From: a virus
Taxonomy: Duplodnaviria; Heunggongvirae; Uroviricota; Caudoviricetes
DNA: 12,057 nucleotides
Strand: one strand, 5' to 3'
Virus record (IMG/VR): IMGVR_UViG_2558860274_000002
Positions 1 to 12,057 of this stretch are shown here, one piece after another. Positions within the stretch are counted from its first letter, which is position 1; every line of letters starts with the position of its first letter. Under the pieces are notes generated by a model. That model saw only the letters and a list, made by a program, of their open reading frames with translations, had not been told where the DNA came from and made no database searches. The translations under genes and the position numbers were made by a program.

Positions 1-219
1 TTACATCCACATAATTTGCTGCCCTGACGGCAACGGGTGCGGCCTTACGGCGTGGACTTCTCCCGGCTTCACGATGTATCGCTGTACCGACTCATAAGTG
101 ATGAACGTGGCGCTGCAATTCACGTTCTGGCACTGGTGATAACGCTCTTTTGTCGTGTCAGTGATATAGCGGCTTGTACGCGCATGTGCGGCATGCTGGC
201 ATAAAGGACAATGAAACAT
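1..219 (-). CDS. ogr: Ogr, P2-type late-gene transcriptional activator (Cys4 zinc finger), 72 aa
   Basis: Minus-strand ORF; translation from the internal Met (MFHCPLCQHAAHARTSRYITDTTKERYHQCQNVNC...) gives 72 aa, the length and N-terminus I recall for P2 Ogr. Has the C-x2-C...C-x4-C zinc-binding pattern. RBS-like GGAAGAGG lies 8 nt upstream of this ATG. The 93-aa extension to nt 282 is probably not translated. Confidence 0.9.
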   Translation of the reverse strand: MFHCPLCQHAAHARTSRYITDTTKERYHQCQNVNCSATFITYESVQRYIVKPGEVHAVRPHPLPSGQQIMWM

Positions 220-300
220 CGCGAGCACCTCTTCCGGTTTTGTTGATGGTGCCATTTTAGTTAATTTATCCTTATAAAACAAACAGATAAATAAAAGATA
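220..300 (-). promoter_or_regulatory. Candidate ogr promoter in the D-ogr intergenic region
   Basis: 82-nt AT-rich spacer between D stop (301) and ogr start (219). On the minus strand there is a possible -35 TTGTTT (282..277), 17-nt spacer, and -10 TAAAAT (259..254). Hexamers picked by eye only. Confidence 0.3.
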
Positions 301-1464
301 TCACTCATCATCTTCTGTTTCGTACTCCACATCAGAAAGCCTTACCTCAAGTTCTAAGGACGTCGTGAAGCCGCTATTATTCAGAAAATGTGTCACCTTA
401 GTGATTGTCCAGTCCTGCTCGTCTATGACGCGCTTAAAGCCTGATACTTTGACCGGCGTTTCCGTGTAAATATCTGCCCGACCAGTAGCCAGACTGATGG
501 AGAACTCCGCAACGCCCCGTTGCAGCTTATCCCACTTCGCCTGAGCGGCGCGCATGGCCTGCGCTTTCGTGGCATATACCGTGGTCAGGGCAAAAACGTT
601 GTCAGCCTCACCTGCCATGTATTCACCTTCGCGCGCTTCCGGTACTTTTGGCGCTTTCTTCTGCGTGACTGGTTTCGCTTTCGGGTGTTCCAGTGCGCGC
701 AGGTGTTTCTCTTTCTTTTTGCGTTTCAGTTTTACCTTCTGCTTTTGCGGCTTCGGGTCTTTGGTGTGTAACCACTTTGCCGTTACGCCGGTGTAAGCTC
801 CACGGTCAGCAATCGCAAAATGATGACGGTCGCCGTCGCTGCGGGTGATGGTAATCTGCGGGATTTTTTTACCACTGGCCGTCACCCCCTGCCCCGCTTT
901 GAGAAACAACAGTTTTCCCATTTTTACAGAGACCTCACCGCCGTTGCGTTCTGCAAGACGGGTCAGGAATTTCGCATCAGACTCCTGCGACTGGTCGATG
1001 TGCGGGATTTTAATTCCGGCCAGTGACGGAGCGACACTGGCTTCCAGTCTGTTACGGGAGGCTATCGCCTCAACAATCGCACCGAGCGTGGTGTCATGCC
1101 AGGAGCCTTCACGGCGGGAATTGAGCGTCCCGCGGAAATCTGCACTCCGGGCGCGGATGGTAACCACATCCGGCGCGCCCCGGTGTTCAACCTCATCAAC
1201 GGTAAATTTCCCTTTGCATACCAGGGCAAAACCTTTCCAGCCGATATACACCGTCAGGACAGCGCCACGAACCGGCAGCCCGACCTGCCCGTCGGCATCG
1301 TTCAGTTCAATATCAAGCTGGTCAGCCTCAAAGCCCCGGTTATCCGTCAGGGTCATGCTCATCAGACGGTCGCTGATATTGCCGGTAATATCCCTGCTGT
1401 CGAGCATCAGCATGTAATCCGGTGTCAGCGTACTGCCTGCATCAAATGTCAGCGCATCCAGCAT
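301..1464 (-). CDS. D: Tail protein gpD (P2 late gene D family), 387 aa
   Basis: Minus-strand ORF; start at the internal Met (MLDALTFDAGSTLTPDYMLMLDSRDITG...) gives 387 aa, the length I recall for P2 gpD. Contains the lysine-rich stretch KDPKPQKQKVKLKRKKKEKH. G-rich RBS-like run directly upstream of the ATG at 1464. Immediately followed by ogr, as in P2. Confidence 0.9.
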   Translation of the reverse strand: MLDALTFDAGSTLTPDYMLMLDSRDITGNISDRLMSMTLTDNRGFEADQLDIELNDADGQVGLPVRGAVLTVYIGWKGFALVCKGKFTVDEVEHRGAPDVVTIRARSADFRGTLNSRREGSWHDTTLGAIVEAIASRNRLEASVAPSLAGIKIPHIDQSQESDAKFLTRLAERNGGEVSVKMGKLLFLKAGQGVTASGKKIPQITITRSDGDRHHFAIADRGAYTGVTAKWLHTKDPKPQKQKVKLKRKKKEKHLRALEHPKAKPVTQKKAPKVPEAREGEYMAGEADNVFALTTVYATKAQAMRAAQAKWDKLQRGVAEFSISLATGRADIYTETPVKVSGFKRVIDEQDWTITKVTHFLNNSGFTTSLELEVRLSDVEYETEDDE

Positions 1465-1489
1465 TATCCCGCCCCCGTCATACCCGTGA

Positions 1490-1759
1490 ATGAAAACCGC
1501 AATGGTGCTCAAGGCAAAAGACGTTATTCGCCGTGGCTGTCTGGAATATGACGTCAGCGCCACCGACATCACCAGCTCGTTTATGGCTATCCGCAAGACC
1601 ATGACCAGCAGCGGACGCAGCGCCACCTATGAGGCCAGCCGCAGCGAGGAAGCCAGCCACGCCGACCTCGCCTGGGCGACCATGCACGCCCTGTTAAATG
1701 AGCCACTCACCGCCGGTATCAGCACCCCGCTGACATCCACCATTCTGGAGTTTTACTGA
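1490..1759 (+). pseudogene. Probable 3' remnant of terminase ATPase gene P (truncated, 89 codons)
   Basis: ORF directly upstream of Q on the same strand, with its TGA stop (1757-1759) overlapping the Q ATG (1759-1761) in an ATGA arrangement, as expected for P-Q coupling. The frame is closed by a TGA at 1487-1489, so at most 89 codons remain versus roughly 590 expected for P. Identity as P is inferred from position only; I cannot recall the P C-terminal sequence. Confidence 0.4.
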
Positions 1760-2793
1760 TGAGCAAGAAAAAAGGGAAAACACCGCAACCTGCGGCAAAA
1801 AAAATGACCGCCAGCGCCCCGAAAATGGAGGCATTCACCTTTGGTGAGCCGGTGCCGGTGCTCGACCGCCGTGACATTCTGGATTACGTCGAATGTATCA
1901 GTAACGGCAGATGGTATGAGCCGCCGGTCAGCTTTACCGGTCTGGCAAAAAGCCTGCGTGCTGCCGTGCATCACAGCTCACCGATTTACGTCAAACGCAA
2001 TATTCTGGCTTCAACGTTTATTCCGCATCCGTGGCTTTCCCAGCAGGATTTCAGCCGCTTTGTGCTGGATTTTCTGGTGTTCGGCAATGCGTTTCTGGAA
2101 AAGCGTTACAGTACCACCGGTAAGGTCATCAGACTGGAAACCTCACCGGCAAAATATACCCGCCGTGGTGTGGAAGAGGATGTTTACTGGTGGGTGCCGT
2201 CCTTCAACGAGCCGACAGCCTTCGCGCCCGGCTCCGTGTTTCACCTGCTGGAGCCGGATATTAATCAGGAGCTGTACGGTCTGCCGGAATATCTCAGCGC
2301 CCTTAATTCTGCCTGGCTGAATGAGTCGGCCACGCTGTTCCGCCGCAAGTATTACGAAAATGGCGCACATGCCGGATACATCATGTACGTCACTGATGCC
2401 GTGCAGGATCGCAACGATATCGAAATGCTACGCGAAAACATGGTTAAGTCGAAAGGCCGCAATAACTTTAAAAATCTGTTTCTCTATGCCCCACAGGGGA
2501 AAGCCGACGGCATTAAAATTATCCCCCTCAGTGAAGTGGCGACGAAGGACGATTTTTTTAATATCAAAAAAGCCAGCGCCGCTGACCTGCTGGACGCGCA
2601 CCGCATCCCCTTTCAGTTGATGGGTGGCAAGCCGGAGAACGTCGGGTCGCTGGGTGATATAGAGAAAGTGGCAAAGGTCTTTGTCCGCAATGAGCTTATC
2701 CCGTTACAGGACAGGATCCGCGAGATAAACGGCTGGCTCGGTCAGGAGGTCATCCGCTTTAAAAACTACTCACTGGACACTGACAACGGCTGA
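1759..2793 (+). CDS. Q: Portal (capsid vertex) protein gpQ, 344 aa
   Basis: 344-aa ORF, the length I recall for P2 gpQ, transcribed toward the cos site as in P2. Start ATG overlaps the upstream ORF stop. Followed by a strong intrinsic terminator. Confidence 0.9.
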   Translation: MSKKKGKTPQPAAKKMTASAPKMEAFTFGEPVPVLDRRDILDYVECISNGRWYEPPVSFTGLAKSLRAAVHHSSPIYVKRNILASTFIPHPWLSQQDFSRFVLDFLVFGNAFLEKRYSTTGKVIRLETSPAKYTRRGVEEDVYWWVPSFNEPTAFAPGSVFHLLEPDINQELYGLPEYLSALNSAWLNESATLFRRKYYENGAHAGYIMYVTDAVQDRNDIEMLRENMVKSKGRNNFKNLFLYAPQGKADGIKIIPLSEVATKDDFFNIKKASAADLLDAHRIPFQLMGGKPENVGSLGDIEKVAKVFVRNELIPLQDRIREINGWLGQEVIRFKNYSLDTDNG

Positions 2794-2798
2794 ACATC

Positions 2799-2820
2799 GC
2801 CGCCTGTGGGCGGCTTTTTT
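2799..2820 (+). terminator. Rho-independent terminator downstream of Q
   Basis: GCCGCC (2799-2804), loop TGTG, GGCGGC (2809-2814), then a run of six T (2815-2820), starting 6 nt after the Q stop codon. Confidence 0.65.
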
Positions 2821-2962
2821 ACACCCCGCCATCACGCCCTCACACGCTCACCACCGCACAAAACAGCCCGCATACACACCAACGCCCCGGCGAACAATCT
2901 AAACGCCATCACAACGCGCTCAGACGCTGAAAAAATAAAATCAGCACCACCGCCAGCGCGCA

Positions 2963-2981
2963 GTGCTTTCCCCACCTCGCC
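2963..2981 (-). other. cos site: 19-nt P2/P4-type cohesive-end sequence (terminase cleavage site)
   Basis: Minus strand reads GGCGAGGTGGGGAAAGCAC, one mismatch from the P2/P4 cohesive end as I recall it (GGCGAGGCGGGGAAAGCAC). The flanking C/A-rich sequence 2821-2962 also resembles my recollection of the P2/P4 left-end sequence. Position between Q and the right-end genes is as expected. Confidence 0.7.
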
Positions 2982-3004
2982 CGCCCGCTTCGTGGGGCGG
3001 TTTT
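2981..3004 (+). terminator. Terminator-like GC hairpin abutting cos
   Basis: CCGCCC (2981-2986), 8-nt loop, GGGCGG (2995-3000), followed by TTTT (3001-3004). Function not established; may be part of the terminase recognition region instead. Confidence 0.3.
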
Positions 3005-3138
3005 AATGCAGGTGTAAATTCAGTCTAAATACATACCTGTCGGGTCATCAAGCTTGTGCGCTCACTCAATAAAACACATGCAAATAAATGCATATAGACA
3101 TGCGCTACCAACTTGCACTAGCCATGTACATCAGGTAA

Positions 3139-4971
3139 TTAACAACGTAATTCTGTACAATTAGCCCATTCTTCAGAAAAAACAGCATCTGAAGATTTTG
3201 GCCCTGGCCTTGCTTGATTAATTGAAATTCTTACAGGCAAATTAAATGCAGAACCAAATGCAACAGCATCACCTCTTGGTAAACCTGATATTTGTTTTAA
3301 GATTTGTTCATTACCGCTTTCCATTGCATATCTGAGAGCCTGTAAATCTCTTTCATTAGTCAAACGTAACGAAAACCAGTTTGAACACATTGCCAAAACA
3401 GTAGGAGAAAGCTCTGAGGGTCGCTGAGTACTGACAATTAAAGAGCATTTGAATTTCCTACCTTCTTTAGCAAGTCGTTCATATGCTTTAATCTGTGAGT
3501 CAATTTCAGCATAAGGGTCACGCAGGTAATGATGCGCTTCTTCCAACAAAAGTACCGTAGGATACGAACGTTCCTGCCCACGTCTAAATAGTATCTCAGC
3601 AAACATCTCCAACAATGCACTAAGTAACATTGGAGCATGATCTTGTGCCAAATTTTTCATATTAACTATATGAACATTCCAATCATTTTCTTGTCCTTTT
3701 TCCTTACCAAAGAAGTAATCAACTTCATCACTCATAGCTTTATCCCAATGCGTTCCACCATCTGCTAGCTCACCCCCTCCATTTAAATTAACAATAGATT
3801 TAAATCTTATATCCTCTGCAAGTTGTTGTATGATTTTTACCAATGGCAACACGTTACTAAAACCAAACGCGTCACGTTTACTTCCATTAGAACGGTCAGC
3901 AGCTACACATCCAAATTCAGCAACCAAAGTCGCTAAACTTTTAAACGGCGGCCATACATTCGTTCTTTTAAGACGTCTACGCCTTAATAAATCCAACCAC
4001 TCAGCCAATTTACTTTGATTTGTGTCACGACAATCATCATACAAAAGAAAAGTTTCACCATCATTTTTTTCCAAGTAAATATTACGGCTTTTAAAATGAG
4101 TCCGATTAATTGCACTTAATGCATTTCTTAATGCGGGCAATTGTGTTTTATCACTTGGTCTTAATAATTTAATTAACCCAGCAAAACCTAATGCCTGATA
4201 TGGTATCTTTTTATAACAATAATACTCTTCACTATATAGCTCACCCTTTTGCTGATTTTTTTCCAAACTATCAACATTTGGGGATTCCCCTAGAATAGTG
4301 TGCTTTACATTTGGAATACCTGTAAAAGCTTGCGCGTATTCACCATTTATGTCAAAAATAACTATTCTTGAGTTAGGGTATTTTTCAGAAACCTTCCTCG
4401 TTAACAAAGCATTGAAATTTGATTTACCATATCCTGTACTACCAAGAACGGCTAAGTGTCGCGACAATAATTTATCAACACTTGCAAATATCTTAACGGT
4501 TTTAGTTCGAGAATCCACACCTAATTCAACCGCTTTTGGGAGTTCTTCTTTATCAATACTATAAATGATGTTCAAAAAATCTGAAGTCAAAGGAACAGCA
4601 GAAGAACCCAATGCAGGTAAGCGCCAATCTTCTGATATAAAAACATAACCATTTAACTCCCTTTTCACAAAGCCAATTGCATAGGCGATAATTTGTCTTA
4701 GAGGTATATCAGCTAAATCAGATGTGCCTACATTTGCCTTATGCGCTTTATCCGCTTCAACAAATGCCATATCTGTCACTCTTGCGACAACTAATATATT
4801 ACCTGCATCGAACCCAATAAGATCTCCTGGTTGCGTTACTGAGCTCACCCCCTTTCTATGCGATGCTAATCTGCCTTGCAACCCCTCATGCAGGTTTATC
4901 CTAATTCTTTCCCCTTCTAATCCTACAACGTATCCAATAGCCGAGATTTCAGTAAGTTTAAAAAGGGACAT
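3139..4971 (-). CDS. herA: HerA-like (FtsK/HerA superfamily) ATPase, 610 aa; second gene of a SIR2-HerA-type defence operon
   Basis: Walker A LAVLGSTGYGKSN, Walker B TVLLLEEAHHYL, and the HerA/FtsK-typical LIVSTQRPSEL motif. Start taken at the internal Met (MSLFKLTEIS..., ATG at 4971) because AGGAGA lies 5 nt upstream and the ATG sits just inside the 3' end of the sir2-like gene. The ORF track's start at 5022 has no such support. AT-rich relative to phage core genes. Confidence 0.85.
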   Translation of the reverse strand: MSLFKLTEISAIGYVVGLEGERIRINLHEGLQGRLASHRKGVSSVTQPGDLIGFDAGNILVVARVTDMAFVEADKAHKANVGTSDLADIPLRQIIAYAIGFVKRELNGYVFISEDWRLPALGSSAVPLTSDFLNIIYSIDKEELPKAVELGVDSRTKTVKIFASVDKLLSRHLAVLGSTGYGKSNFNALLTRKVSEKYPNSRIVIFDINGEYAQAFTGIPNVKHTILGESPNVDSLEKNQQKGELYSEEYYCYKKIPYQALGFAGLIKLLRPSDKTQLPALRNALSAINRTHFKSRNIYLEKNDGETFLLYDDCRDTNQSKLAEWLDLLRRRRLKRTNVWPPFKSLATLVAEFGCVAADRSNGSKRDAFGFSNVLPLVKIIQQLAEDIRFKSIVNLNGGGELADGGTHWDKAMSDEVDYFFGKEKGQENDWNVHIVNMKNLAQDHAPMLLSALLEMFAEILFRRGQERSYPTVLLLEEAHHYLRDPYAEIDSQIKAYERLAKEGRKFKCSLIVSTQRPSELSPTVLAMCSNWFSLRLTNERDLQALRYAMESGNEQILKQISGLPRGDAVAFGSAFNLPVRISINQARPGPKSSDAVFSEEWANCTELRC

Positions 4972-6205
4972 TACCTTCTCCTTTAGAAAGATTAGCAATT
5001 GCTTCAACCAACTCATCAACAATATTATCTCGTGGAAAGAGCACAGGGTATGGTAGATGTTCTACGAAACTATTAAAATATGCCTTGCTTCCTCCCCCAA
5101 CTACAGTTACTTGATTGAAAGCCATATTTTTTAAAGTAACAATAGCTTTCTCAGCTTCCGAACCGCCACCCTTACTTACTTTGGCAATTGCTTCTTTCAA
5201 TTCAGGATAATATATAACAACATGGAAAGATGGATTCAGTAACGCGCCTAATATTATTCTATTTATATGATAATCACCGAAACCAAACCCATTTATGAAC
5301 AACGCTGTTTGAGGTTTCGAAATAAACTCCCCAAAACGTCTAAACATCTCTCCATAAACGAAGCCGATTGTATGGCTATATTTATTCGCCCCTGGATAAA
5401 TCAAATGTTGACCGCGATAAAAGTCATCTTTATTGATTATGTCATTAATATATTCATCATATGCTTGAGATGCACTAACTTCGTTAACAGTCAAGCTATC
5501 ATTTTGATACCACGTAAGTGAGCCATGTAATTTATAGAGATACGCATGATAATGTCCGAATCTTGCTTCGCCCTTCGCATTTACATTTCTGAAAGCCAAA
5601 TCAAAATTCTGGGGATAAAACTGCCGTGTATGTAGCCCAGAAAAACCATTAAACAACTGTATTCCTAAATCTTCTGCAGCCCACTCTAAGGCCAAATCAT
5701 AATTTGTTGTGAAAATTGCCGGAGCCGACTGACCGGGCTGTCTATTTGAAATTAATTTTGAAATTAACTCTTTGTGATATTTAAACGCATCTTTTTTACC
5801 CTGATTTTTCTCTCTAAACTGCTCTCCTGTTAATAATGCAGCCTTCGTAACCTCTTTATATAATGAACTTAATATCTTCCTGAATTCCTCCTCTTCATCT
5901 TCACATCGTCTAGTTTTAGCTACAGAAAGAAATTTAGTTGCTTCATCTATCAAAAGTTCAACATTGACCAAATTGTTATCAGAATCAATTTGCGAAACCA
6001 GAAGATATTTATCAATAAGTGCTCCCAAAAGCTCAGGGTAGTTTTGCTTAAACGATTTCCATACATCTTTCATCGTTTTCCCACCACAACCGACAGAAGC
6101 ACCAGCACCTAACAGAACGCCAACATTATCTAATTGACACAAGGAATAAACGTGAGAACGAAAATCATCCTCATTTAACTTGTTACCACCTTGATAAATC
6201 GACAT
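4958..6205 (-). CDS. sir2: SIR2-like domain protein (predicted NAD+-consuming effector), about 415 aa; first gene of the SIR2-HerA-type operon
   Basis: Rossmann-type glycine motif VLLGAGASVGCGG, then IFTTNYDLALEWA (Asn/Asp motif typical of prokaryotic defence SIR2 domains) and YLYKLHGSLTW (catalytic His-Gly). About 180 aa C-terminal extension. Start placed at the second ATG (6205) because AAGGA lies 5 nt upstream; the first ATG (6211) is an alternative. AT-rich. Confidence 0.85.
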   Translation of the reverse strand: MSIYQGGNKLNEDDFRSHVYSLCQLDNVGVLLGAGASVGCGGKTMKDVWKSFKQNYPELLGALIDKYLLVSQIDSDNNLVNVELLIDEATKFLSVAKTRRCEDEEEEFRKILSSLYKEVTKAALLTGEQFREKNQGKKDAFKYHKELISKLISNRQPGQSAPAIFTTNYDLALEWAAEDLGIQLFNGFSGLHTRQFYPQNFDLAFRNVNAKGEARFGHYHAYLYKLHGSLTWYQNDSLTVNEVSASQAYDEYINDIINKDDFYRGQHLIYPGANKYSHTIGFVYGEMFRRFGEFISKPQTALFINGFGFGDYHINRIILGALLNPSFHVVIYYPELKEAIAKVSKGGGSEAEKAIVTLKNMAFNQVTVVGGGSKAYFNSFVEHLPYPVLFPRDNIVDELVEAIANLSKGEGNVPF

Positions 6206-6211
6206 AAACAT

Positions 6212-6326
6212 CCTTTTACAAATTTTAAAATTAGCTAAGTTACTACATTAAAAATCAAATATTAGAAAAAGTCATTACTCATAATCACACAATAGATTCA
6301 TAGGGTTAGCATAGTCACAATAGCTA
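6212..6326 (-). promoter_or_regulatory. Probable promoter region of the SIR2-HerA operon
   Basis: 115-nt very AT-rich spacer between the A stop and the sir2 start. One candidate on the minus strand: -35 TTGATT (6258..6253), 17-nt spacer, -10 GCTAAT (6235..6230). Not validated. Confidence 0.3.
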
Positions 6327-8450
6327 TCATTGTTGATTATCAGCATCCTGTACATTGAAAATCGCGGTTGACTCGCCAACTATGCCTGCTCGTGTGTCTC
6401 CTTTGTTTGTACATTTACGTGATGCTTCTATTTTCAATGCCAGATTAAGCACTTTCAAGACCTCCGGGTCATTCCATTCGATAACACCGTCATCTACCAG
6501 ATTAAGCACTGCTGCGGCGTGCTCAGAAGGTGTGGGAGCCGGTAACGAAGTATCGCCACAGGTGAGCTTTCCACAGTTATTGACAGGACTCCGAGGCGCG
6601 GCGATGCCGCTTTTTAAAGTCAAAGGCTCAACGACCGGAACTTTCGACACAATGCGCCAGTCCGTCGTTCTGGTGATATGAATATGACGCGCGCCGAGAT
6701 GCGGCGCGTAAATGCCGACCACTCTCTCGACTTCTTCCTCGTACTCGTTAACTTCATCCGACGGACTACGGGCGACCCTGACAGTCTGACAATCGCGCGG
6801 GACATTTGCCCCACCCTGCGCGCTGATATACAACGCAAAATCACCACTGTCTGCGGCGGCGCGTGCAGCCTCGACGCGCTCGTCAAACTCATCAGCAATG
6901 CTGACGCCGCGAGGCAATTTGCGTAGTTCACGGTAAGCCCCCATTGTCGGCAGACCAACCGTTTTAAATTGTGGGATGCGCCACGTTGACGCCCATGCGG
7001 TAACAGCCGCAGCAGTGTCTTTCAGCGGTCTGCCGGTATCGTTATCGAGCTGACCATCCAGTGCATAGCCATCGATGTTTTTTGAGATGTATTTCGCGAT
7101 ATACCCCGCAGCACCGCCCTGGTTAAGGTGTTTTGCCTGAAAACGGTTTCGCGCGGCTCCTCTTTCGTCGCCATCCTCTTTGAGCGCATAGCGACGCATG
7201 ATTTCGATAATCTGGTTACGCTGGCGTGGATTACAAAAAAGCATCATATGCCAGTGCGGCGTTCCGTCGTGGTGTGGCTCGACGACACGCAAACCGTAGA
7301 CCTGTAAATCATTATCCTTGAATGCCGTGCGCATCAGGCTCCAGATATGGCAGAGATAACGCTGCGCATCCTTTGGATTAAATGCCTCATCGTTCCAGCC
7401 GTGATTTAGCTGGACGGTTTTACTTTCGCCTTTTCCGACCTGACGTGTCGGGTGATACTTTGACGGCGCGGTAAGCGTGATAAACATCCCCACATCACCC
7501 TCTGCGGCGGCGTAACGCTCAATACCGGCAATGGTGTTCATCAGCTCCATCCGGCGAATTTCAGGATTAGAAATACTGCCCATCACCTTACTGATAAGGT
7601 CGATGCGCTCGCCGGTTTCCCTGTTTTCAAGGTCACACGATTTAAGAAATTCCAGATTTGCCTGGCGGCGTGCACGCACATCACGAATGGCATGTTTACT
7701 GGCATAAGGAGAACGGTCTTTATTCACCTCCCCGACAGCAATCAGTAACGCCTCATGCCAGCGCATACGCTGGCCTTTGAGCTGATGAGTCCACCACTCA
7801 TCGTTAAACAGACGGGCAATGGCAGAATATGCCTGCCTCGTGGTCATCTGTCCTTTACGGTATTTTTTCCAGTAAAGCGGGGAAATATTGAAAGCACGTG
7901 CAGCGCCAGCAACATGACCATAGAGGTGAGCCTGCGCCTCATCCGTAAACAGCGATTCTTTTTCGCCATGTGCATCCACCCAGGCATCGCTGAGTTCCTC
8001 ATACATCATGAAAAGCTGCGATGAGATACGGGCGGCAAACTTTTTCAGCTCCTTGTCATTCATTCCCGGCAGGCGCGCATAGTGGTCACGCTCTGCCAGA
8101 AACAGCAACGACGCGTCGGTGTTCATTTCATGGCGCTGATTCACGCGCTCAATGCGCGGCCATAAACGACGCTGAAAAGTGGATGTGAGGAAATAAAACC
8201 CGTGCACCGGGCTTTTATTGCGCCGGATGTAGTCATAGCGTGAAGTAAACAGCGAGCGCAAAAAGTAAGGCAGGCGGTTAATCGTGGATAAAACACCTTG
8301 CACCTGACGCATCTCGTCACGTGTAAGAGGTCTTTCGCGCCCGACAGCCTCGCGTGGCGCGTTCCATGCATAAGCACCGGTAAACGCCTTACCGGTGCCT
8401 GCGGCAAATGCTGACGGAGGGACAAAACGCCCGGAGGCTTTAACGGCCAT
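6327..8450 (-). CDS. A: Replication initiation endonuclease gpA (rolling-circle HUH-type initiator), 707 aa
   Basis: Start at the internal Met (MAVKASGRFVPPSAFAAG..., ATG at 8450), which I recall as the P2 gpA N-terminus. HUH-type metal-binding motif PHWHMMLF and paired-tyrosine motif GYIAKYISK typical of rolling-circle initiators. My recollection is that P2 gpA is about 761 aa, so the C-terminus here may be shorter or divergent. Confidence 0.9.
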   Translation of the reverse strand: MAVKASGRFVPPSAFAAGTGKAFTGAYAWNAPREAVGRERPLTRDEMRQVQGVLSTINRLPYFLRSLFTSRYDYIRRNKSPVHGFYFLTSTFQRRLWPRIERVNQRHEMNTDASLLFLAERDHYARLPGMNDKELKKFAARISSQLFMMYEELSDAWVDAHGEKESLFTDEAQAHLYGHVAGAARAFNISPLYWKKYRKGQMTTRQAYSAIARLFNDEWWTHQLKGQRMRWHEALLIAVGEVNKDRSPYASKHAIRDVRARRQANLEFLKSCDLENRETGERIDLISKVMGSISNPEIRRMELMNTIAGIERYAAAEGDVGMFITLTAPSKYHPTRQVGKGESKTVQLNHGWNDEAFNPKDAQRYLCHIWSLMRTAFKDNDLQVYGLRVVEPHHDGTPHWHMMLFCNPRQRNQIIEIMRRYALKEDGDERGAARNRFQAKHLNQGGAAGYIAKYISKNIDGYALDGQLDNDTGRPLKDTAAAVTAWASTWRIPQFKTVGLPTMGAYRELRKLPRGVSIADEFDERVEAARAAADSGDFALYISAQGGANVPRDCQTVRVARSPSDEVNEYEEEVERVVGIYAPHLGARHIHITRTTDWRIVSKVPVVEPLTLKSGIAAPRSPVNNCGKLTCGDTSLPAPTPSEHAAAVLNLVDDGVIEWNDPEVLKVLNLALKIEASRKCTNKGDTRAGIVGESTAIFNVQDADNQQ

Positions 8451-8715
8451 ATGAGCCAAAAGCCTCAGAACAACGCTTGCTGAGTTGCTCAACCTGCGCG
8501 TTTAAATCAGCAAAAGACTTTGCGCTTCCGGTCAGAATATCGTGATGCATCAGGCCGGAAACGAGCTGGATTAATTTCGGGTAATAACCAACCACCGCCA
8601 GCCATTCCTGACCGGCGTTTTTACCGCTTTCCGCTCTCTTTTTCTCGTGGAGAATAAACTGAAAGCTGTCACTGGTAACGACATAACGTTCGCCAATTTC
8701 AATACGAATACTCAT
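8440..8715 (-). CDS. P2 orf83-like small protein (function unknown)
   Basis: 91-aa ORF in the orf80-83 position between B and A. Its stop overlaps the A start by 11 nt and its start overlaps the upstream gene's stop. Confidence 0.6.
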   Translation of the reverse strand: MSIRIEIGERYVVTSDSFQFILHEKKRAESGKNAGQEWLAVVGYYPKLIQLVSGLMHHDILTGSAKSFADLNAQVEQLSKRCSEAFGSYGR

Positions 8716-8936
8716 GCCGTTCTCCGGTAATGCTTGTTTTTTGCTTCAAAGACTGACTGGCAGGAAACACAACGCGTGGCTGACGGATAAGCTGCACGAC
8801 GGGCAGCAGGTATTGGCGCGTCACACTCTTCGCAAACCAGCGCAGAAACACCGCTATGTTTTACCCTTGCCGCGTTAATCTGGCGCTCCAGTAATTCAGC
8901 CTGTTGTTCCTGAATAAAATCTATGTTGTCCGGCAT
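8712..8936 (-). CDS. TraR/DksA-family C4 zinc-finger protein (P2 orf82-like)
   Basis: 74-aa ORF with CEEC-x17-CVSC, the C-x2-C-x17-C-x2-C spacing typical of TraR/DksA-family proteins. Start and stop codons overlap those of both neighbours. Confidence 0.7.
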   Translation of the reverse strand: MPDNIDFIQEQQAELLERQINAARVKHSGVSALVCEECDAPIPAARRAAYPSATRCVSCQSVFEAKNKHYRRTA

Positions 8937-9241
8937 TACCAGCTCCTTTTGTCGTTCAGCTTCTTAAATTCATCAGCGCAATAGCTGGCGATTTCTGTCG
9001 TTAATTTTGTCAGTTCATCCACGGATGAAATTTGCTTATGAAATACAGCGCGTTTAACAAGTAAATTGACCACATCAGACAGGAGGTTTAATTCATTCTG
9101 ATAAATCGCGATAACAGATTCAGTTATGTCGCGTTTTTCTTTATCAAGACAAAGTTGAATAAGAGACAAATCGCCATTTTTCATAACGGCGATTTTTAAG
9201 GCGTTATTCAGTAATACAACTGAATGAGAACAGGACATCAA
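8936..9241 (-). CDS. P2 orf81-like small protein (function unknown)
   Basis: 101-aa ORF, tightly coupled to both flanking ORFs in the early operon. No recognisable motif. Confidence 0.55.
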
Positions 9242-9462
9242 AGCACCTCCCCGCGAGACAATCCGATATTGTGAAATTTTTCCGACTCCTGACTGAGCAG
9301 CTCGACTATCTCCACGCGGGATAACTCCGCCTTTGTGATATGGCGAATCATGGCGTCAAGATGAGAAGAAAAGCGCGTCGCAGCGTCGGCCTGTGCTTCG
9401 GTTCTGGCCTGTTGCAGCAGTAATGCGTATTTACCGCACTGATTTTCAGAAACTGTATGCAT
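9238..9462 (-). CDS. P2 orf80-like small protein (function unknown)
   Basis: 74-aa ORF, first gene after B in the early operon. Its stop overlaps the start of the next ORF. Confidence 0.55.
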
Positions 9463-9525
9463 GACTTTCTCCAGGCAAAAAGAAGCCCCGCACGATTAAG
9501 TGCGTTAAAAACTCTGGTTAATTAC

Positions 9526-10026
9526 TTAATGCAGATATTGCTCTGGTTTTACCGACGTCAGAATTGTCGGTGCATACTCAAACAGGCTGAATAATTCACG
9601 TAATGCACGGAATAAAGCATCACGCCAGTAACATGACTCTTCATTAATTCGCCAGTATGGCTGGTTGAATTCTTTTTCAGTCAATCCGGCATGCATAAAT
9701 AAAGTACGACGCTGACTGACTGTTAAAAAACTAATATATGCATACTCACTTGCGCCAACCTGACGGCGTTTTGAGAATGCCCCACGCAATTCATCAATTG
9801 CACAAACCAGCCGTTCACGTTCGACGTCGTTCATTTCTTCAAAACGCATCGTTGCGTGACGCTGTTTTAACTGCGCATGAAAGCAAACCGTTAACCGTTC
9901 GCGCTCCATCATCTGATTATAATAATCACATGTATCCTGCCAGCGAGGGACGGCCAGATGCTTACCAATTATCCGGCGCATAGTTGCTGGCTGTTTTTCG
10001 ACGAGATTGAGCGTCATCACTGTCAT
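9526..10026 (-). CDS. B: Replication protein gpB (helicase-loader-type early protein), 166 aa
   Basis: 166-aa ORF, the length I recall for P2 gpB, in the expected position between orf78 and orf80. Confidence 0.85.
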   Translation of the reverse strand: MTVMTLNLVEKQPATMRRIIGKHLAVPRWQDTCDYYNQMMERERLTVCFHAQLKQRHATMRFEEMNDVERERLVCAIDELRGAFSKRRQVGASEYAYISFLTVSQRRTLFMHAGLTEKEFNQPYWRINEESCYWRDALFRALRELFSLFEYAPTILTSVKPEQYLH

Positions 10027-10259
10027 TTCCAGAACCTCCGGCTTTTCAGAAAGGTCAGAGCCTTTTTTAACGGACTCTGTTTTTTGGTGCGGATAATGAT
10101 TCCCTTGCGACCCTTCCCGTGGGTGATGGTGAAGTCAATCGCCCTGGGGCTTTCGTTACGCAATAACTGAGCAATACAACGAGGCTCGTTCATCCTTTCC
10201 ACCTTAAGCCGCACGGCCATGTCTTGATTTGCTGTAACTAATGCGATTTTTCCAGTCAT
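10023..10259 (-). CDS. P2 orf78-like small protein, 78 aa
   Basis: Starting at the internal Met (MTGKIALVTANQDMAVRLK...) gives exactly 78 aa. Stop overlaps the B start (ATGA-type). The longer 96-aa form in the ORF track would overlap cox even further. Confidence 0.6.
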   Translation of the reverse strand: MTGKIALVTANQDMAVRLKVERMNEPRCIAQLLRNESPRAIDFTITHGKGRKGIIIRTKKQSPLKKALTFLKSRRFWK

Positions 10260-10575
10260 GCCATTCTGTCGGAGCTTCATCAACCAGTTGGGCTGCGTAC
10301 TTGTCCCACTCACGGCGATTAATCCATAATTCAGCTTTCCCTCTTGGTTTTAATGGGTCTGTCATGTAGAAGGCTGGCAGCTTTCCTGCTTTAGCCATTT
10401 CAGCCACCGCGCGTGGTGTCTTACCGATGTAAAGAGCAAAACCTTCTTTCGACAGCAAATCAGATGGGCGCTCTGAAATCTGAATGCTTTTACGTTTGGC
10501 TTCATTTTCGAAACTTGCCTCATCGCTAGTTGGACAAGAAATTTCTACATTTGTCGTCACTTTGCTATCCTCCAT
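10204..10575 (-). CDS. cox: Cox-like excisionase / early transcriptional repressor (winged-HTH)
   Basis: First gene of the leftward early operon, divergent from C. The segment GFALYIGKTPRAVAEMAKAGKLPAFYMTDP resembles the Cox DNA-binding region as I recall it. Start uncertain: the ATG at 10575 has no RBS, whereas an in-frame GTG at 10560 is preceded by GGAGGA with a 7-nt spacer (118 aa). The ORF is longer than P2 Cox (91 aa) and overlaps the orf78 start. Confidence 0.65.
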   Translation of the reverse strand: MEDSKVTTNVEISCPTSDEASFENEAKRKSIQISERPSDLLSKEGFALYIGKTPRAVAEMAKAGKLPAFYMTDPLKPRGKAELWINRREWDKYAAQLVDEAPTEWHDWKNRISYSKSRHGRAA

Positions 10576-10668
10576 AAGATTTGCGATTCACCAACTGGAG
10601 CCATCTAGAGCCTTTTTGAGTGAATCACAAATTGCCAAGTAGCAATATAATTGGAGATTAGCAAAATT
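10576..10668. promoter_or_regulatory. Immunity switch region (divergent Pe/Pc-type promoters and operators) between cox and C
   Basis: 93-nt spacer between the divergent cox and C starts. Contains a 7-bp inverted repeat GATTCAC (10585-10591) / GTGAATC (10620-10626) and a TATAAT hexamer (10646-10651) on the plus strand. Operator assignment not made. Confidence 0.5.
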
Positions 10669-10968
10669 ATGTCAAGTGAACAAAGTGAGAAACTAAAGCT
10701 CATCCGTGAATCCGAACGCCTTAAAACTAAGGAACTTGCTGAATTAATTGGAATTAATTACTACACATATCATGGATATGAATCAGGAAAATCAAAAATG
10801 CCTATGGAAGCAGGTATGAAGCTGTTTAAGCATCCACGCTTTCGCAAGTATCGTGACTGGTTCATGTTTGATGAAACAGATCCAGCAGCTGGACAAATAG
10901 CCCCGGCTCTCGCACACATTGGGCAAGACTCAACAACCTTGCACCACTCAGACCAGAAGACTGGCTGA
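10669..10968 (+). CDS. C: Immunity repressor C (P2 C family), 99 aa
   Basis: From the ATG at 10669 the ORF is 99 aa, the P2 C length. C-terminal DPAAGQIAPALAHIGQD...SDQKTG closely resembles the P2 C C-terminus as I recall it. The ORF track's start at 10651 is a TTG and less likely. Confidence 0.85.
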   Translation: MSSEQSEKLKLIRESERLKTKELAELIGINYYTYHGYESGKSKMPMEAGMKLFKHPRFRKYRDWFMFDETDPAAGQIAPALAHIGQDSTTLHHSDQKTG

Positions 10969-11061
10969 CGATTTATTCAGCATATGTGTGTAGTAAATGT
11001 ACGAAAGAAAATTGCATTAATTTTCAAGTAGTAGAAGTAAACAGCGTCATCGGAGGGCTTT

Positions 11062-12057
11062 ATGTCTATTAAAAAGCTCGATGATGGTCGTTATGAAGTG
11101 GACGTCAGACCGCAGGGTGCAGATGGAAAACGTATCAGGCGGAAATTTAAAACTAAAGGTGAAGCTCAGGCATTCGAACGTCATGTACTGGTTAACTACC
11201 ACAACAAAGAGTGGTTGGAGAAACCAGCCGACCGCCGAACTCTTACAGAGTTGTTAGGTAGATGGTGGATATATCACGGAAAATCACATGAGCGTGGAGA
11301 TATTGAACGGGGGCGTTTAACGACAATAATCGCCAAATTTGCAGAAATGGGAGTGTCCAGAGCTGACCAGCTAACAAAGAAAACGATAACTGATTATCGC
11401 GTTGTAATGATGAACGATGGTCTAAAACCAGCCAGCGTAAATCGACATCTGGCAATAATGAGCGGGATGTTCACCAAGTTAATTGACGCCGGTGAATACC
11501 ACTCCCACAACCCGTTCCGTGAGATTAAACGGTTACGTGAAGCTGTTACGGAAATGGCTTTTTTGTCCAGTGAAGAGATTACGCGGCTGTTATCCATGCT
11601 TGATGGTGATGAATTAAATGCAACTCTGGTCTGCCTTTCTACTGGTGGACGCTGGAGTGAAGTGTCTAATTTAAAAGCTGAACACATCATTAACCAGATG
11701 GTTACGTTTATGAAAACTAAAAACGGAAAACGCAGGACAATTCCCGTTTCGCAGGACCTGATTAAACGGATCAAGACCAAAAATTCAGGCAGGCTTTTTA
11801 ATGCCAGTTACTACAAAGTGCGTAACGCTCTCAGGGAAGTAAAACCCGATTTACCTGACGGACAAGCAGTACATGTTTTGAGGCATACATTTGCCACACA
11901 TTTTATAATGAATGGAGGTAACATAATCACATTGCAGCGCATCCTGGGTCATTCTAACATTCAGCAAACTATGACCTACGCACACTTTGCACCGGATTTC
12001 TTACAAGATGCTGTGACTCTTAACCCGGTGTCAGGAATGTCCATAATGCGTCCATAA
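11062..12057 (+). CDS. int: Tyrosine integrase (P2 Int family), 331 aa
   Basis: N-terminus MSIKKLDDGRYEVDVRPQGADGKRIRRKF resembles P2 Int. Tyrosine-recombinase motifs HVLRHTFATHF and the catalytic Tyr context QTMTYAHF are present. GGAGGG RBS 4 nt upstream. Downstream of C on the same strand, as in P2. The stop codon is the last 3 nt of the window. Confidence 0.9.
   Translation: MSIKKLDDGRYEVDVRPQGADGKRIRRKFKTKGEAQAFERHVLVNYHNKEWLEKPADRRTLTELLGRWWIYHGKSHERGDIERGRLTTIIAKFAEMGVSRADQLTKKTITDYRVVMMNDGLKPASVNRHLAIMSGMFTKLIDAGEYHSHNPFREIKRLREAVTEMAFLSSEEITRLLSMLDGDELNATLVCLSTGGRWSEVSNLKAEHIINQMVTFMKTKNGKRRTIPVSQDLIKRIKTKNSGRLFNASYYKVRNALREVKPDLPDGQAVHVLRHTFATHFIMNGGNIITLQRILGHSNIQQTMTYAHFAPDFLQDAVTLNPVSGMSIMRP

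What the first reader, a model, noticed from the sequence alone, without database searches (positions are those of the whole stretch)
3139..6205. Two-gene SIR2-like + HerA-like defence operon in the A-cos cargo slot
The upstream gene carries the SIR2 catalytic signature (GAGAS Rossmann motif, TTNYD, HGS) and the downstream gene is a HerA/FtsK-type ATPase (GSTGYGKS, LLLEEAHH, STQRPS). From the literature as I recall it, SIR2 paired with HerA is an anti-phage system that depletes NAD+ on infection, and the A-to-cos position in P2-like phages is a hotspot for defence cargo, occupied by tin/old in P2 itself. This is the most probable function of the cargo. Novelty of this variant cannot be judged without searches; the C-terminal ~180 aa of the SIR2 protein and the N-terminal ~170 aa of HerA carry no motif I recognise and may be specificity or sensor regions.
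Basis: partly seen in the sequence, partly recalled or inferred. Interest (0 to 1): 0.8.

Follow-up and report, generated by a model that had tools for sequence, protein, structure and literature searches.

The report
Known SIR2–HerA (Nezha) phage-defence operon

Summary
Window 4958-6205 (-) encodes a 415-aa SIR2 protein and 3139-4971 (-) a 610-aa HerA ATPase.

- Top PADLOC hits are SIR2 (5e-190) and HerA (2.8e-277).
- The proteins are 414/415 and 608/610 identical to PDB 8J4U/8SU9, the E. coli Sir2-HerA "Nezha" complex.
- The DNA is 99.7% identical to the cassette of E. coli NCTC11129, the strain whose system is reported to block phage lambda.
- The cassette (3011-6454, 36.6% GC against 49.8% elsewhere) replaces P2's orf91-tin-old between gene A and cos. 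Rousset et al. 2022 catalogued this hotspot and list "SIR2 + HerA" there (system 14, 188 loci).

The verdict is that this is already known and of low interest.

One thing seen in passing is less ordinary. The host element is a 12-kb P2 remnant lacking all morphogenesis genes. Its deletion ends 11 nt from a nucleotide-precise recurrent breakpoint in terminase gene P (P2 coordinate 1501/1502). At least seven other remnants share that breakpoint, each with a different partner sequence, and the cause is unexplained.

The parts
4958..6205 (-). SIR2-family NADase gene (415 aa). Catalytic N168 is the codon at 5704-5702 and H227 the codon at 5527-5525. It differs from PDB 8J4U chain A only at residue 341 (A here, T in the PDB sequence).
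3139..4971 (-). HerA-family ASCE ATPase gene (610 aa). Walker A K183 is the codon at 4425-4423 and Walker B E477 the codon at 3543-3541. It differs from PDB 8J4U chain M at residue 239 (N here, K in the PDB sequence) and residue 303 (N here, D in the PDB sequence).
4958..4971 (-). 14-nt overlap between the SIR2 stop codon (4960-4958) and the HerA start codon (4971-4969), with GGAGAAGG just upstream. The arrangement suggests translational coupling (inferred).
6206..6326 (-). AT-rich 121-nt spacer between the gene A stop and the SIR2 start. It is the presumed site of the native promoter, but it holds only weak sigma-70-like matches (for example TTTAAT-19-TAAAAT at 6252-6222). The one 9/12 match lies at 6458-6430, inside the 3' end of A. 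No promoter is demonstrated.
3011..6454 (.). Whole foreign cassette (36.6% GC against 49.8% for the rest of the window). It replaces P2 coordinates 30030-33545, which hold the last 290 nt of A, orf91, tin and old. Its left edge supplies a new 42-codon C-terminus to gene A (6327-6454).
2963..2981 (-). cos cohesive-end 19-mer GGCGAGGTGGGGAAAGCAC (18/19 identical to P2 cosL/cosR). The cassette begins 29 nt beyond it.
6327..8450 (-). P2-type replication initiator gene A (707 aa, against 761 aa in P2). It forms the upstream border of the hotspot. The position equivalent to the P2 ori nick site (P2 29892, about window 6592) is retained.
1759..2793 (+). Portal gene Q (344 aa), which forms the other border of the hotspot beyond cos.

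Best explanation
This is a functional copy of the Escherichia Sir2-HerA ('Nezha') abortive-infection defence system, carried as accessory cargo in the gpA-cos hotspot of a P2-like prophage (here a defective one).

The mechanism below is taken from published work on proteins 99.7-99.8% identical to these. It was not tested here.
- Twelve SIR2 subunits form a two-layered ring. A HerA hexamer docks into it through its N-terminal barrel domains and the SIR2 C-terminal extension.
- Assembly switches on SIR2 NADase activity, and the complex also has ATPase, helicase and nuclease activities.
- Physiological ATP keeps these activities inhibited.
- During infection ATP falls, the inhibition is relieved and NAD+ is hydrolysed to ADP-ribose and nicotinamide. 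The infected cell stops growing and the phage cannot replicate.

What is shown here is gene integrity, catalytic residues, near-identity to the solved complex and genomic position. What is inferred by identity is complex formation, NAD+ depletion and phage protection. The phage-derived trigger for this allele is not known from any source I could read.
For: Family assignment:
- PADLOC SIR2 model PDLC02186 matches at 5e-190 over residues 2-414, and HerA model PDLC02185 at 2.8e-277 over 24-622 of the long ORF.
- Pfam SIR2_2 and DUF87/HerA both score above their curated cutoffs.

Identity to characterised proteins:
- SIR2 is 414/415 identical to 8j4u_A, a sequence also in 8su9, 8sub, 8suw, 8sxx, 8uae and 8uaf. 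HerA is 608/610 identical to 8j4u_M.
- PMC13434337 names 8J4U as Nezha and cluster 1 of E. coli Sir2-HerA systems.
- Catalytic N168 and H227, Walker A K183 and Walker B E477/E478 are all present. The three substitutions lie outside these motifs.
- The cassette DNA is 99.7% identical to that of E. coli NCTC11129 (H9). PMC11514289 reports that this strain's Sir2-HerA protects against lambda.

Published mechanism:
- NAD+ depletion and an abortive-infection phenotype for a SIR2-HerA system are reported.
- The multi-enzyme, ATP-inhibited mechanism is described.
- The roles of the SIR2 C-terminus and the HerA N-terminus in assembly are described.

Genomic position:
- The hotspot location is established.
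- The identical SIR2 protein is also found in apparently complete P2-like prophages, with gene order A-SIR2-HerA-cos-Q-P-O-N-M-L and onward.
Against: - No experiment was done on this exact allele. It carries A341 in SIR2 and N239 and N303 in HerA, where the PDB sequences have T, K and D.
- No convincing sigma-70 promoter was found in the 121-nt upstream spacer, so expression in this host is assumed, not shown.
- The carrier prophage is decayed, so the cassette could in principle be silent.
- The primary papers for the E. coli structures (Tang 2023, Shen 2023) and Gao 2020 were not readable here. Their content is cited second-hand.
Confidence: 0.93

Rival explanations
1. The cassette is an inactive relic. 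Its sequence is intact, but it is transcriptionally silent or functionally impaired in this decayed prophage, for example through loss of a promoter or one of the three substitutions, and it contributes nothing to the host.
For: The prophage has lost about 21 kb of morphogenesis genes. Gene A has a replaced C-terminus, and RefSeq flags A as incomplete in one related strain. No strong promoter match lies upstream.
Against: Both ORFs are full length with no frameshift, and all catalytic residues are present. The same 707-aa A and the same upstream spacer occur in apparently complete prophages. The same remnant is kept at 98.9-100% identity in other samples. The three substitutions lie outside the motifs.
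Confidence: 0.05
2. The pair serves a non-defence role for the prophage or host, for example DNA-end processing like archaeal HerA-NurA, or protein deacetylation like CobB-type sirtuins.
For: HerA homologues act in DNA repair, and SIR2 proteins are classically deacetylases (background given).
Against: The best matches are the defence-specific PADLOC models, not generic families. The proteins are near-identical to ones shown to be an NADase/ATPase defence complex. The location is a defence hotspot.
Confidence: 0.01
3. It belongs to one of the other E. coli Sir2-HerA subtypes (types I-III). Type III uses a HerA nickase triggered by phage SSB proteins rather than the Nezha logic.
For: E. coli carries several diverged Sir2-HerA lineages.
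Against: Types I-III share only about 13-22% identity with Nezha. This pair is more than 99.6% identical to 8J4U.
Confidence: 0.01

Closest known systems
E. coli Sir2-HerA / 'Nezha' (PDB 8J4U, 8SU9, 8SUB, 8SUW, 8SXX, 8UAE, 8UAF; Tang et al. 2023 and Shen et al. 2023, Mol Cell; system first tested by Gao et al. 2020 from E. coli NCTC11129)
   Same: It has the same two genes, order and lengths (415 and 610 aa). Identity is 414/415 and 608/610 at protein level and 99.5-99.9% at DNA level to 20 complete E. coli genomes, including NCTC11129. The catalytic residues are the same.
   Different: There are three conservative substitutions: SIR2 has A341 where the PDB sequence has T, and HerA has N239 and N303 where the PDB sequence has K and D. 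The exact proteins are recorded under both E. coli and Escherichia albertii names, on a 4.70-Mb contig. The carrier is a 12-kb defective prophage rather than a full one.
Second SIR2-HerA allele of the P2 hotspot (for example loci L010, L011 and L013; representative sequence in Rousset et al. 2022 Table S5B, system 14)
   Same: It occupies the same slot between A and cos, in the same orientation and operon structure, with a 415-aa SIR2.
   Different: Identity is only 81% for SIR2 and 77% for HerA. HerA is 606 aa, and the cassette follows a full-length 770-aa A gene.
Paenibacillus sp. 453MF and S. aureus SIR2-HerA systems (PDB 8W9L/8WLD; PMC11472057, PMC11514289)
   Same: They share the two-component architecture, HerA-dependent activation of the SIR2 NADase and ATP inhibition.
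   Different: Identity to the E. coli proteins is about 28% and 23%. PsSIR2 switches to a 14-mer on HerA binding. SaSir2 is a dimer and lacks the C-terminal helix. The E. coli type uses a unique SIR2 C-terminal extension together with the HerA N-terminus as the interface.
P2 old/tin lysogenic-conversion genes
   Same: They are cargo in the same cos-proximal slot and exclude other phages.
   Different: The proteins are unrelated. In P2, old and tin are transcribed toward A from a promoter next to cos. SIR2-HerA is transcribed away from A toward cos.

Membership tests
SIR2-HerA (Nezha) defence system | Adjacent, co-directional genes for a SIR2-family protein and a HerA-family ATPase | tested here: met
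   The ORFs lie at 4958-6205 and 3139-4971 on the minus strand with a 14-nt overlap. Pfam SIR2_2 and DUF87 are both above cutoff. The system-specific PADLOC SIR2 and HerA models match at 5e-190 and 2.8e-277.
SIR2-HerA (Nezha) defence system | SIR2 NADase catalytic Asn and His | tested here: met
   N168 (in TTNYD) and H227 (in HGS) are present. PMC11559045 names N168 and H227 of V. cholerae A103 SIR2 as the conserved NADase active-site residues, from alignment to E. coli SIR2.
SIR2-HerA (Nezha) defence system | HerA Walker A and Walker B ATPase motifs | tested here: met
   GSTGYGKS (K183) and LLLEEAHH (E477/E478) are present.
SIR2-HerA (Nezha) defence system | Membership of the Nezha cluster (cluster 1) rather than E. 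coli types I-III | tested here: met
   Identity to 8J4U chains is 414/415 and 608/610. Types I-III are only 13-22% identical to Nezha.
SIR2-HerA (Nezha) defence system | Assembly of a SIR2 dodecamer with a HerA hexamer that activates the NADase | not testable with these tools
   Inferred from near-identity to the solved complex. Described second-hand.
SIR2-HerA (Nezha) defence system | Protection against phage with NAD+ depletion (abortive infection) | not testable with these tools
   Reported for the NCTC11129 allele against lambda and for a homologous SIR2-HerA. The cassette here is 99.7% identical in DNA to that of NCTC11129.
P2-like phage gpA-gpQ (cos-proximal) defence hotspot cargo | Non-core genes located between replication gene A and cos/portal gene Q of a P2-like element | tested here: met
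   Alignment to annotated P2 places window 3011-6454 in place of P2 30030-33545, which holds orf91, tin and old. cos lies at 2963-2981. The hotspot is defined, and SIR2+HerA is listed in it.
P2-like phage gpA-gpQ (cos-proximal) defence hotspot cargo | Compositional signature of horizontally acquired cargo | tested here: met
   GC content is 36.6% in the cassette against 49.8% in the rest of the window.

The most novel reading that the evidence does not exclude
The cassette itself is known, but its carrier may not be ordinary decay.

The window is a 12-kb P2 remnant with the order int-C-cox-B-A(ori)-SIR2-HerA-cos-Q-P'|U'-D-ogr. Its 21-kb deletion ends at P2 coordinate 1491. That is 11 nt from a nucleotide-precise breakpoint (P2 1501/1502, inside terminase gene P) at which at least seven other remnants join to seven different partner sequences through 2-3 nt of microhomology.

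The most novel reading is that a site-specific DNA break occurs in gene P. One weak lead is that the site is one of the three best cos-like 19-mers in P2, which could point to terminase. Another nuclease is equally possible. Such a break would repeatedly convert P2-like prophages into small elements that carry cos and a defence cassette. These might be immobile 'domesticated' islands, or they might still be mobilisable by a helper phage.
Probability: 0.15. Interest if true: 0.55.

Novelty: already known. Interest (0 to 1): 0.15.

Why it matters
As it stands, this adds one more genomic instance, probably in Escherichia albertii, of a defence system whose structure, enzymology and hotspot location are already published. 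It is useful for annotation and not for discovery.

It does show that the scan's first stage can recognise a defence operon and its mobile-element context from motifs alone.

The side observation could matter more. If a fixed break site in the terminase gene drives P2 prophage decay while sparing cos and the defence slot, it would give a concrete mechanism for how prophage-borne defence cargo becomes fixed in bacterial chromosomes.

Tried and rejected
- Megablast of the cassette against 50,697 deposited phage genomes found no match. tblastn of HerA found only distant ATPase or terminase hits at 24-36% identity. This allele is therefore not in a sequenced free phage in that collection.
- An Rfam gathering-threshold scan of the whole window found nothing.
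- The promoter and terminator consensus scan, and my own relaxed -35/-10 scan of 6190-6480, gave no convincing promoter for the operon. Promoter-like hits across the region were no more frequent than in shuffled sequence.
- A literature search by PDB identifiers returned only irrelevant papers. Shen et al. 2023 (PMC11418745) and a 2026 H-NS preprint were not held.
- I considered that the pair might be one of the other E. coli Sir2-HerA subtypes. I rejected this on identity.
- For the recurrent breakpoint I tested several ideas:
  - Cryptic cos: the ungapped match is 13/19, one of three such sites in P2. A gapped alignment of the 139-nt cos region to the site is unremarkable, scoring 16 against a genome maximum of 26.
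  - Similarity to the P2 ori nick site, judged by eye: none.
  - Similarity to the attP core: only a CGTGTA-centred 11/17 match, and the breakpoint occurs with two different integrase types.
  - IS insertion or a reciprocal junction at the site: none in 227 loci anchored on the other side.
  - Chi or EcoP15/EcoP1 sites near the breakpoint, checked by eye only: none.
  - A literature search for a prior description found none.
Full report
**1. The observation**

The ORF table shows two long, co-directional minus-strand ORFs that fill the reported interval.

The upstream gene runs from ATG 6205 to the stop at 4960-4958 and encodes 415 aa. An in-frame ATG two codons earlier (6211) is an alternative start, but RefSeq annotation of the same gene and the PDB constructs begin at MSIYQ.

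The downstream gene is listed from a TTG at 5022, but its real start is ATG 4971 (MSLFKL; 610 aa; stop at 3139), as in RefSeq and the PDB. The HerA start overlaps the end of SIR2 by 14 nt and is preceded by GGAGAAGG. That is typical of a translationally coupled operon.

- SIR2: GAGAS at 33-37, TTNYD at 166-170 and HGS at 227-229.
- HerA: GSTGYGKS at 177-184, LLLEEAHH at 474-481 and STQRPS at 514-519.

The coordinates 3139-6205 are exact.

**2. What it is**

Pfam places the proteins in SIR2_2 and DUF87/HerA, both above the curated cutoffs. PADLOC gives end-to-end matches to its SIR2 model (PDLC02186, 5e-190) and HerA model (PDLC02185, 2.8e-277).

A sequence search of the PDB is decisive. SIR2 is identical at 414 of 415 positions to chain A of 8J4U, a sequence also found in 8SU9, 8SUB, 8SUW, 8SXX, 8UAE and 8UAF. 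HerA is identical at 608 of 610 positions to chain M of 8J4U.

The three differences are A341 in SIR2 (T in the PDB sequence) and N239 and N303 in HerA (K and D in the PDB sequence). All lie outside the catalytic motifs.

PMC13434337 identifies 8J4U as the 'Sir2-HerA/Nezha' system and as cluster 1 of eight E. coli Sir2-HerA clusters. It reports that the other active subtypes (types I-III) share only about 13-22% identity with it.

At the DNA level, the cassette with its flanks (window 3000-6330) is at least 99.5% identical to 20 of 5,426 complete E. coli genomes. One of them is NCTC11129, at 99.7%. PMC11514289 names NCTC11129 as the source of the EcSir2-HerA system reported to protect against lambda.

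The exact protein sequences are on record under both E. coli and Escherichia albertii names, on a 4.70-Mb contig. The window therefore probably comes from an E. albertii chromosome.

**3. Context**

I aligned the window to the annotated P2 genome, AF063097. The correspondence is:

| Window | P2 coordinates | Content |
|---|---|---|
| 1-1491 | 24254-22764 | ogr, D, last 27 nt of U |
| 1489-2981 | 1491-1 | last 89 codons of terminase P, portal Q, cosL |
| 2963-3010 | 33593-33546 | cosR plus 29 nt |
| 6455-10207 | 30029-26277 | A back to cox |

The cos 19-mer is at 2963-2981 with one mismatch.

The foreign insert is therefore 3011-6454. It replaces the last 290 nt of A together with orf91, tin and old. 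It gives A a new 42-codon tail, so A is 707 aa here against 761 aa in P2. Its GC content is 36.6%, against 49.8% for the rest of the window.

This is the gpA-gpQ hotspot described by Rousset et al. 2022. Their Table S5B lists 'SIR2 | DUF87 - SIR2 + HerA (Gao et al., 2020)' as system 14, with 188 loci. Their representative is a second allele, also found in my loci L010, L011 and L013. It is 81% (SIR2) and 77% (HerA) identical to the window's proteins.

The window's exact SIR2 protein also occurs in apparently complete P2-like prophages at the yegR/yegS locus, with the same 707-aa A.

Unlike old and tin, which are transcribed toward A, the SIR2-HerA operon runs in the same direction as A, toward cos. 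No terminator-like site lies between A and SIR2, and no convincing sigma-70 promoter lies in the 121-nt AT-rich spacer. How the operon is transcribed was not established.

**4. How it most likely works**

This section rests on published work with near-identical proteins. None of it was tested here.
- EcSIR2 forms a dodecameric ring that binds an EcHerA hexamer.
- The E. coli-specific SIR2 C-terminal extension bridges neighbouring SIR2 subunits and stabilises the HerA N-terminus.
- HerA N-terminal barrel domains insert into the SIR2 ring.
- Assembly activates the SIR2 NADase, and the complex also has ATPase, helicase and nuclease activities.
- ATP at sub-physiological concentration inhibits the NADase. 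ATP drops during infection of cells carrying Nezha, which is proposed to release the activities and cause abortive infection.
- NAD+ depletion on infection has been measured directly for a homologous SIR2-HerA.
- Phages can counter the system with NAD+-regenerating enzymes.

That is not supported, because these regions are the assembly interface. The phage trigger for this allele is unknown in the sources I could read.

**5. Comparison, membership and novelty**

Every sequence-level defining feature of the SIR2-HerA/Nezha family is met: gene pair, catalytic Asn and His, Walker motifs, and cluster identity. The same is true for the P2 hotspot features of position and composition.

Complex formation, NAD+ depletion and protection could not be tested here. 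They are inferred from 99.7-99.8% protein identity.

The finding is already known. It is another genomic copy of a structurally and biochemically characterised system in a catalogued location.

**6. Noticed in passing**

*The carrier is a remnant.* The window begins exactly at the ogr stop codon and ends exactly at the int stop codon, and it is a 12-kb remnant of a P2-like prophage. P2 coordinates 1492-22763 are missing. These hold most of P, then O through U, which covers all the capsid, lysis and tail genes. The junction has 3 nt of microhomology. The same junction is present in two other sources, at 100% and 98.9% identity.

*The deletion endpoint recurs.* I looked up the 89-aa terminase fragment as an exact protein, and it turned out to be very widespread. 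In six different remnants the homology to P begins at the same nucleotide (P2 1502, or 1501 in one), but the sequence joined to it differs each time. The partners are P2 5591 in M, 11317 in J, 18030 and 18756 in FI, and two non-P2 tail-fibre regions. Each junction has 2-3 nt of microhomology.

That look-up is biased toward endpoints near the ORF's ATG, so I repeated the survey without the bias. I anchored on a 30-mer inside the fragment and scanned three collections. Of 255 classifiable loci:
- 183 had full-length P homology.
- 45 ran into a contig or locus edge.
- 27 lost P homology with at least 100 nt of non-P sequence upstream.

Of those 27, 11 were high-identity truncations in the newly collected loci. 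Three of the 11 end at 1501/1502, and one of these has a seventh partner, P2 12757 in H. The other eight end at 1458, 1852, 1915, 1958, 2117 (twice, with two different partners), 2123 and 2189.

All 227 loci anchored on the other side of the site read straight through it. I therefore saw no insertion and no reciprocal junction.

*Possible causes.* The site GGCGTGTA|GCGGATATCAC matches the cos 19-mer at 13/19 positions on the same strand, and only three such sites exist in P2. However, a gapped alignment of the wider cos region to the site is unremarkable. I could not establish a cause. A site-specific break with one protected end, followed by microhomology joining, would fit the pattern, but that is speculation. 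I found no paper describing it.

**7. Verdict**

The novelty class is 'already known' and the interest is low (0.15). The recurrent terminase-gene breakpoint is the one thing here that may deserve its own follow-up.

Noticed in passing
window 1-12057 (junction at 1488-1491): The window starts exactly at the ogr stop codon and ends exactly at the int stop codon. It is a 12-kb defective P2-like prophage with the order int-C-cox-B-A-SIR2-HerA-cos-Q-P'(last 89 aa)|U'(last 27 nt)-D-ogr. P2 coordinates 1492-22763 (all capsid, lysis and tail genes) are deleted, with 3 nt of microhomology at the junction. The same junction occurs in L006 (100% identity) and L005 (98.9% identity, a metagenome contig). 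At about 12 kb with cos, ori and int retained, it is close to the size of satellite P4 as I recall it (about 11.6 kb, not checked here). Whether a helper phage could mobilise it was not tested.
   Followed up: partly
window 1478-1502 (equivalent to P2 1491-1513); loci L008-L012, L015, L072, L093, L181: There is a nucleotide-precise recurrent deletion endpoint inside terminase gene P of P2-like prophages (P2 coordinate 1501/1502, sequence ...GGCGTGTA|GCGG...). At least seven different partner sequences are joined to it through 2-3 nt of microhomology, always keeping the Q/cos side. The partners are P2 5591, 11317, 12757, 18030 and 18756, plus two non-P2 regions. In a survey not biased by ORF calls, 3 of 11 truncations end there. 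The window's own endpoint (P2 1491) is 11 nt away. The site matches the cos 19-mer at 13/19 positions (one of three such sites in P2), but an extended alignment is unremarkable. No insertion or reciprocal junction was seen in 227 loci. The cause is unknown.
   Followed up: partly
loci L089 and L214 (P2 coordinate 2117); L123 (P2 coordinate 2123): A second possible recurrent endpoint lies in gene P. Two remnants join P2 2117 (...AACGGGTA|GGCG...) to different partners (P2 19399 and 21532), and a third ends 6 nt away. Like the 1502 site, the retained end finishes in GTA and is followed by G.
   Followed up: no
window 6327-6454: The cassette's left boundary lies inside gene A. The last 96 codons of P2 gpA are replaced by 42 unrelated, AT-rich codons, giving a 707-aa A. 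The ori nick position (P2 29892) is upstream of the breakpoint and is retained. The same 707-aa A occurs in apparently complete prophages that carry this cassette. The second SIR2-HerA allele instead follows a 770-aa A. RefSeq flags A as 'incomplete' in strain FG92-1.
   Followed up: partly
window 11062-12057 and loci L005, L006, L012: The integrase here is a 331-aa type only about 66-70% identical in DNA to P2 int. In L005 and L006 it lies next to a radical-SAM gene. L012, whose locus ends before int but has the same 118-aa cox type, has ogr next to focA and pflB. Together these suggest, but do not show, integration between pflB and a pflA-like gene. The E. coli copies of the same cassette sit in prophages with the 337-aa P2-type Int at the yegQ/yegR (ogrK) locus. 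The cassette has therefore moved between P2-like backbones with different integration specificities.
   Followed up: partly
window 2981-3000 and 2799-2814: Two GC-rich hairpins followed by T runs lie on the plus strand. One sits right after the portal gene Q stop, matching P2's annotated tQ terminator position. The other abuts the cos 19-mer. No equivalent terminator was found for the SIR2-HerA transcript before cos, apart from a weak candidate at 2959-2944 on the minus strand.
   Followed up: no
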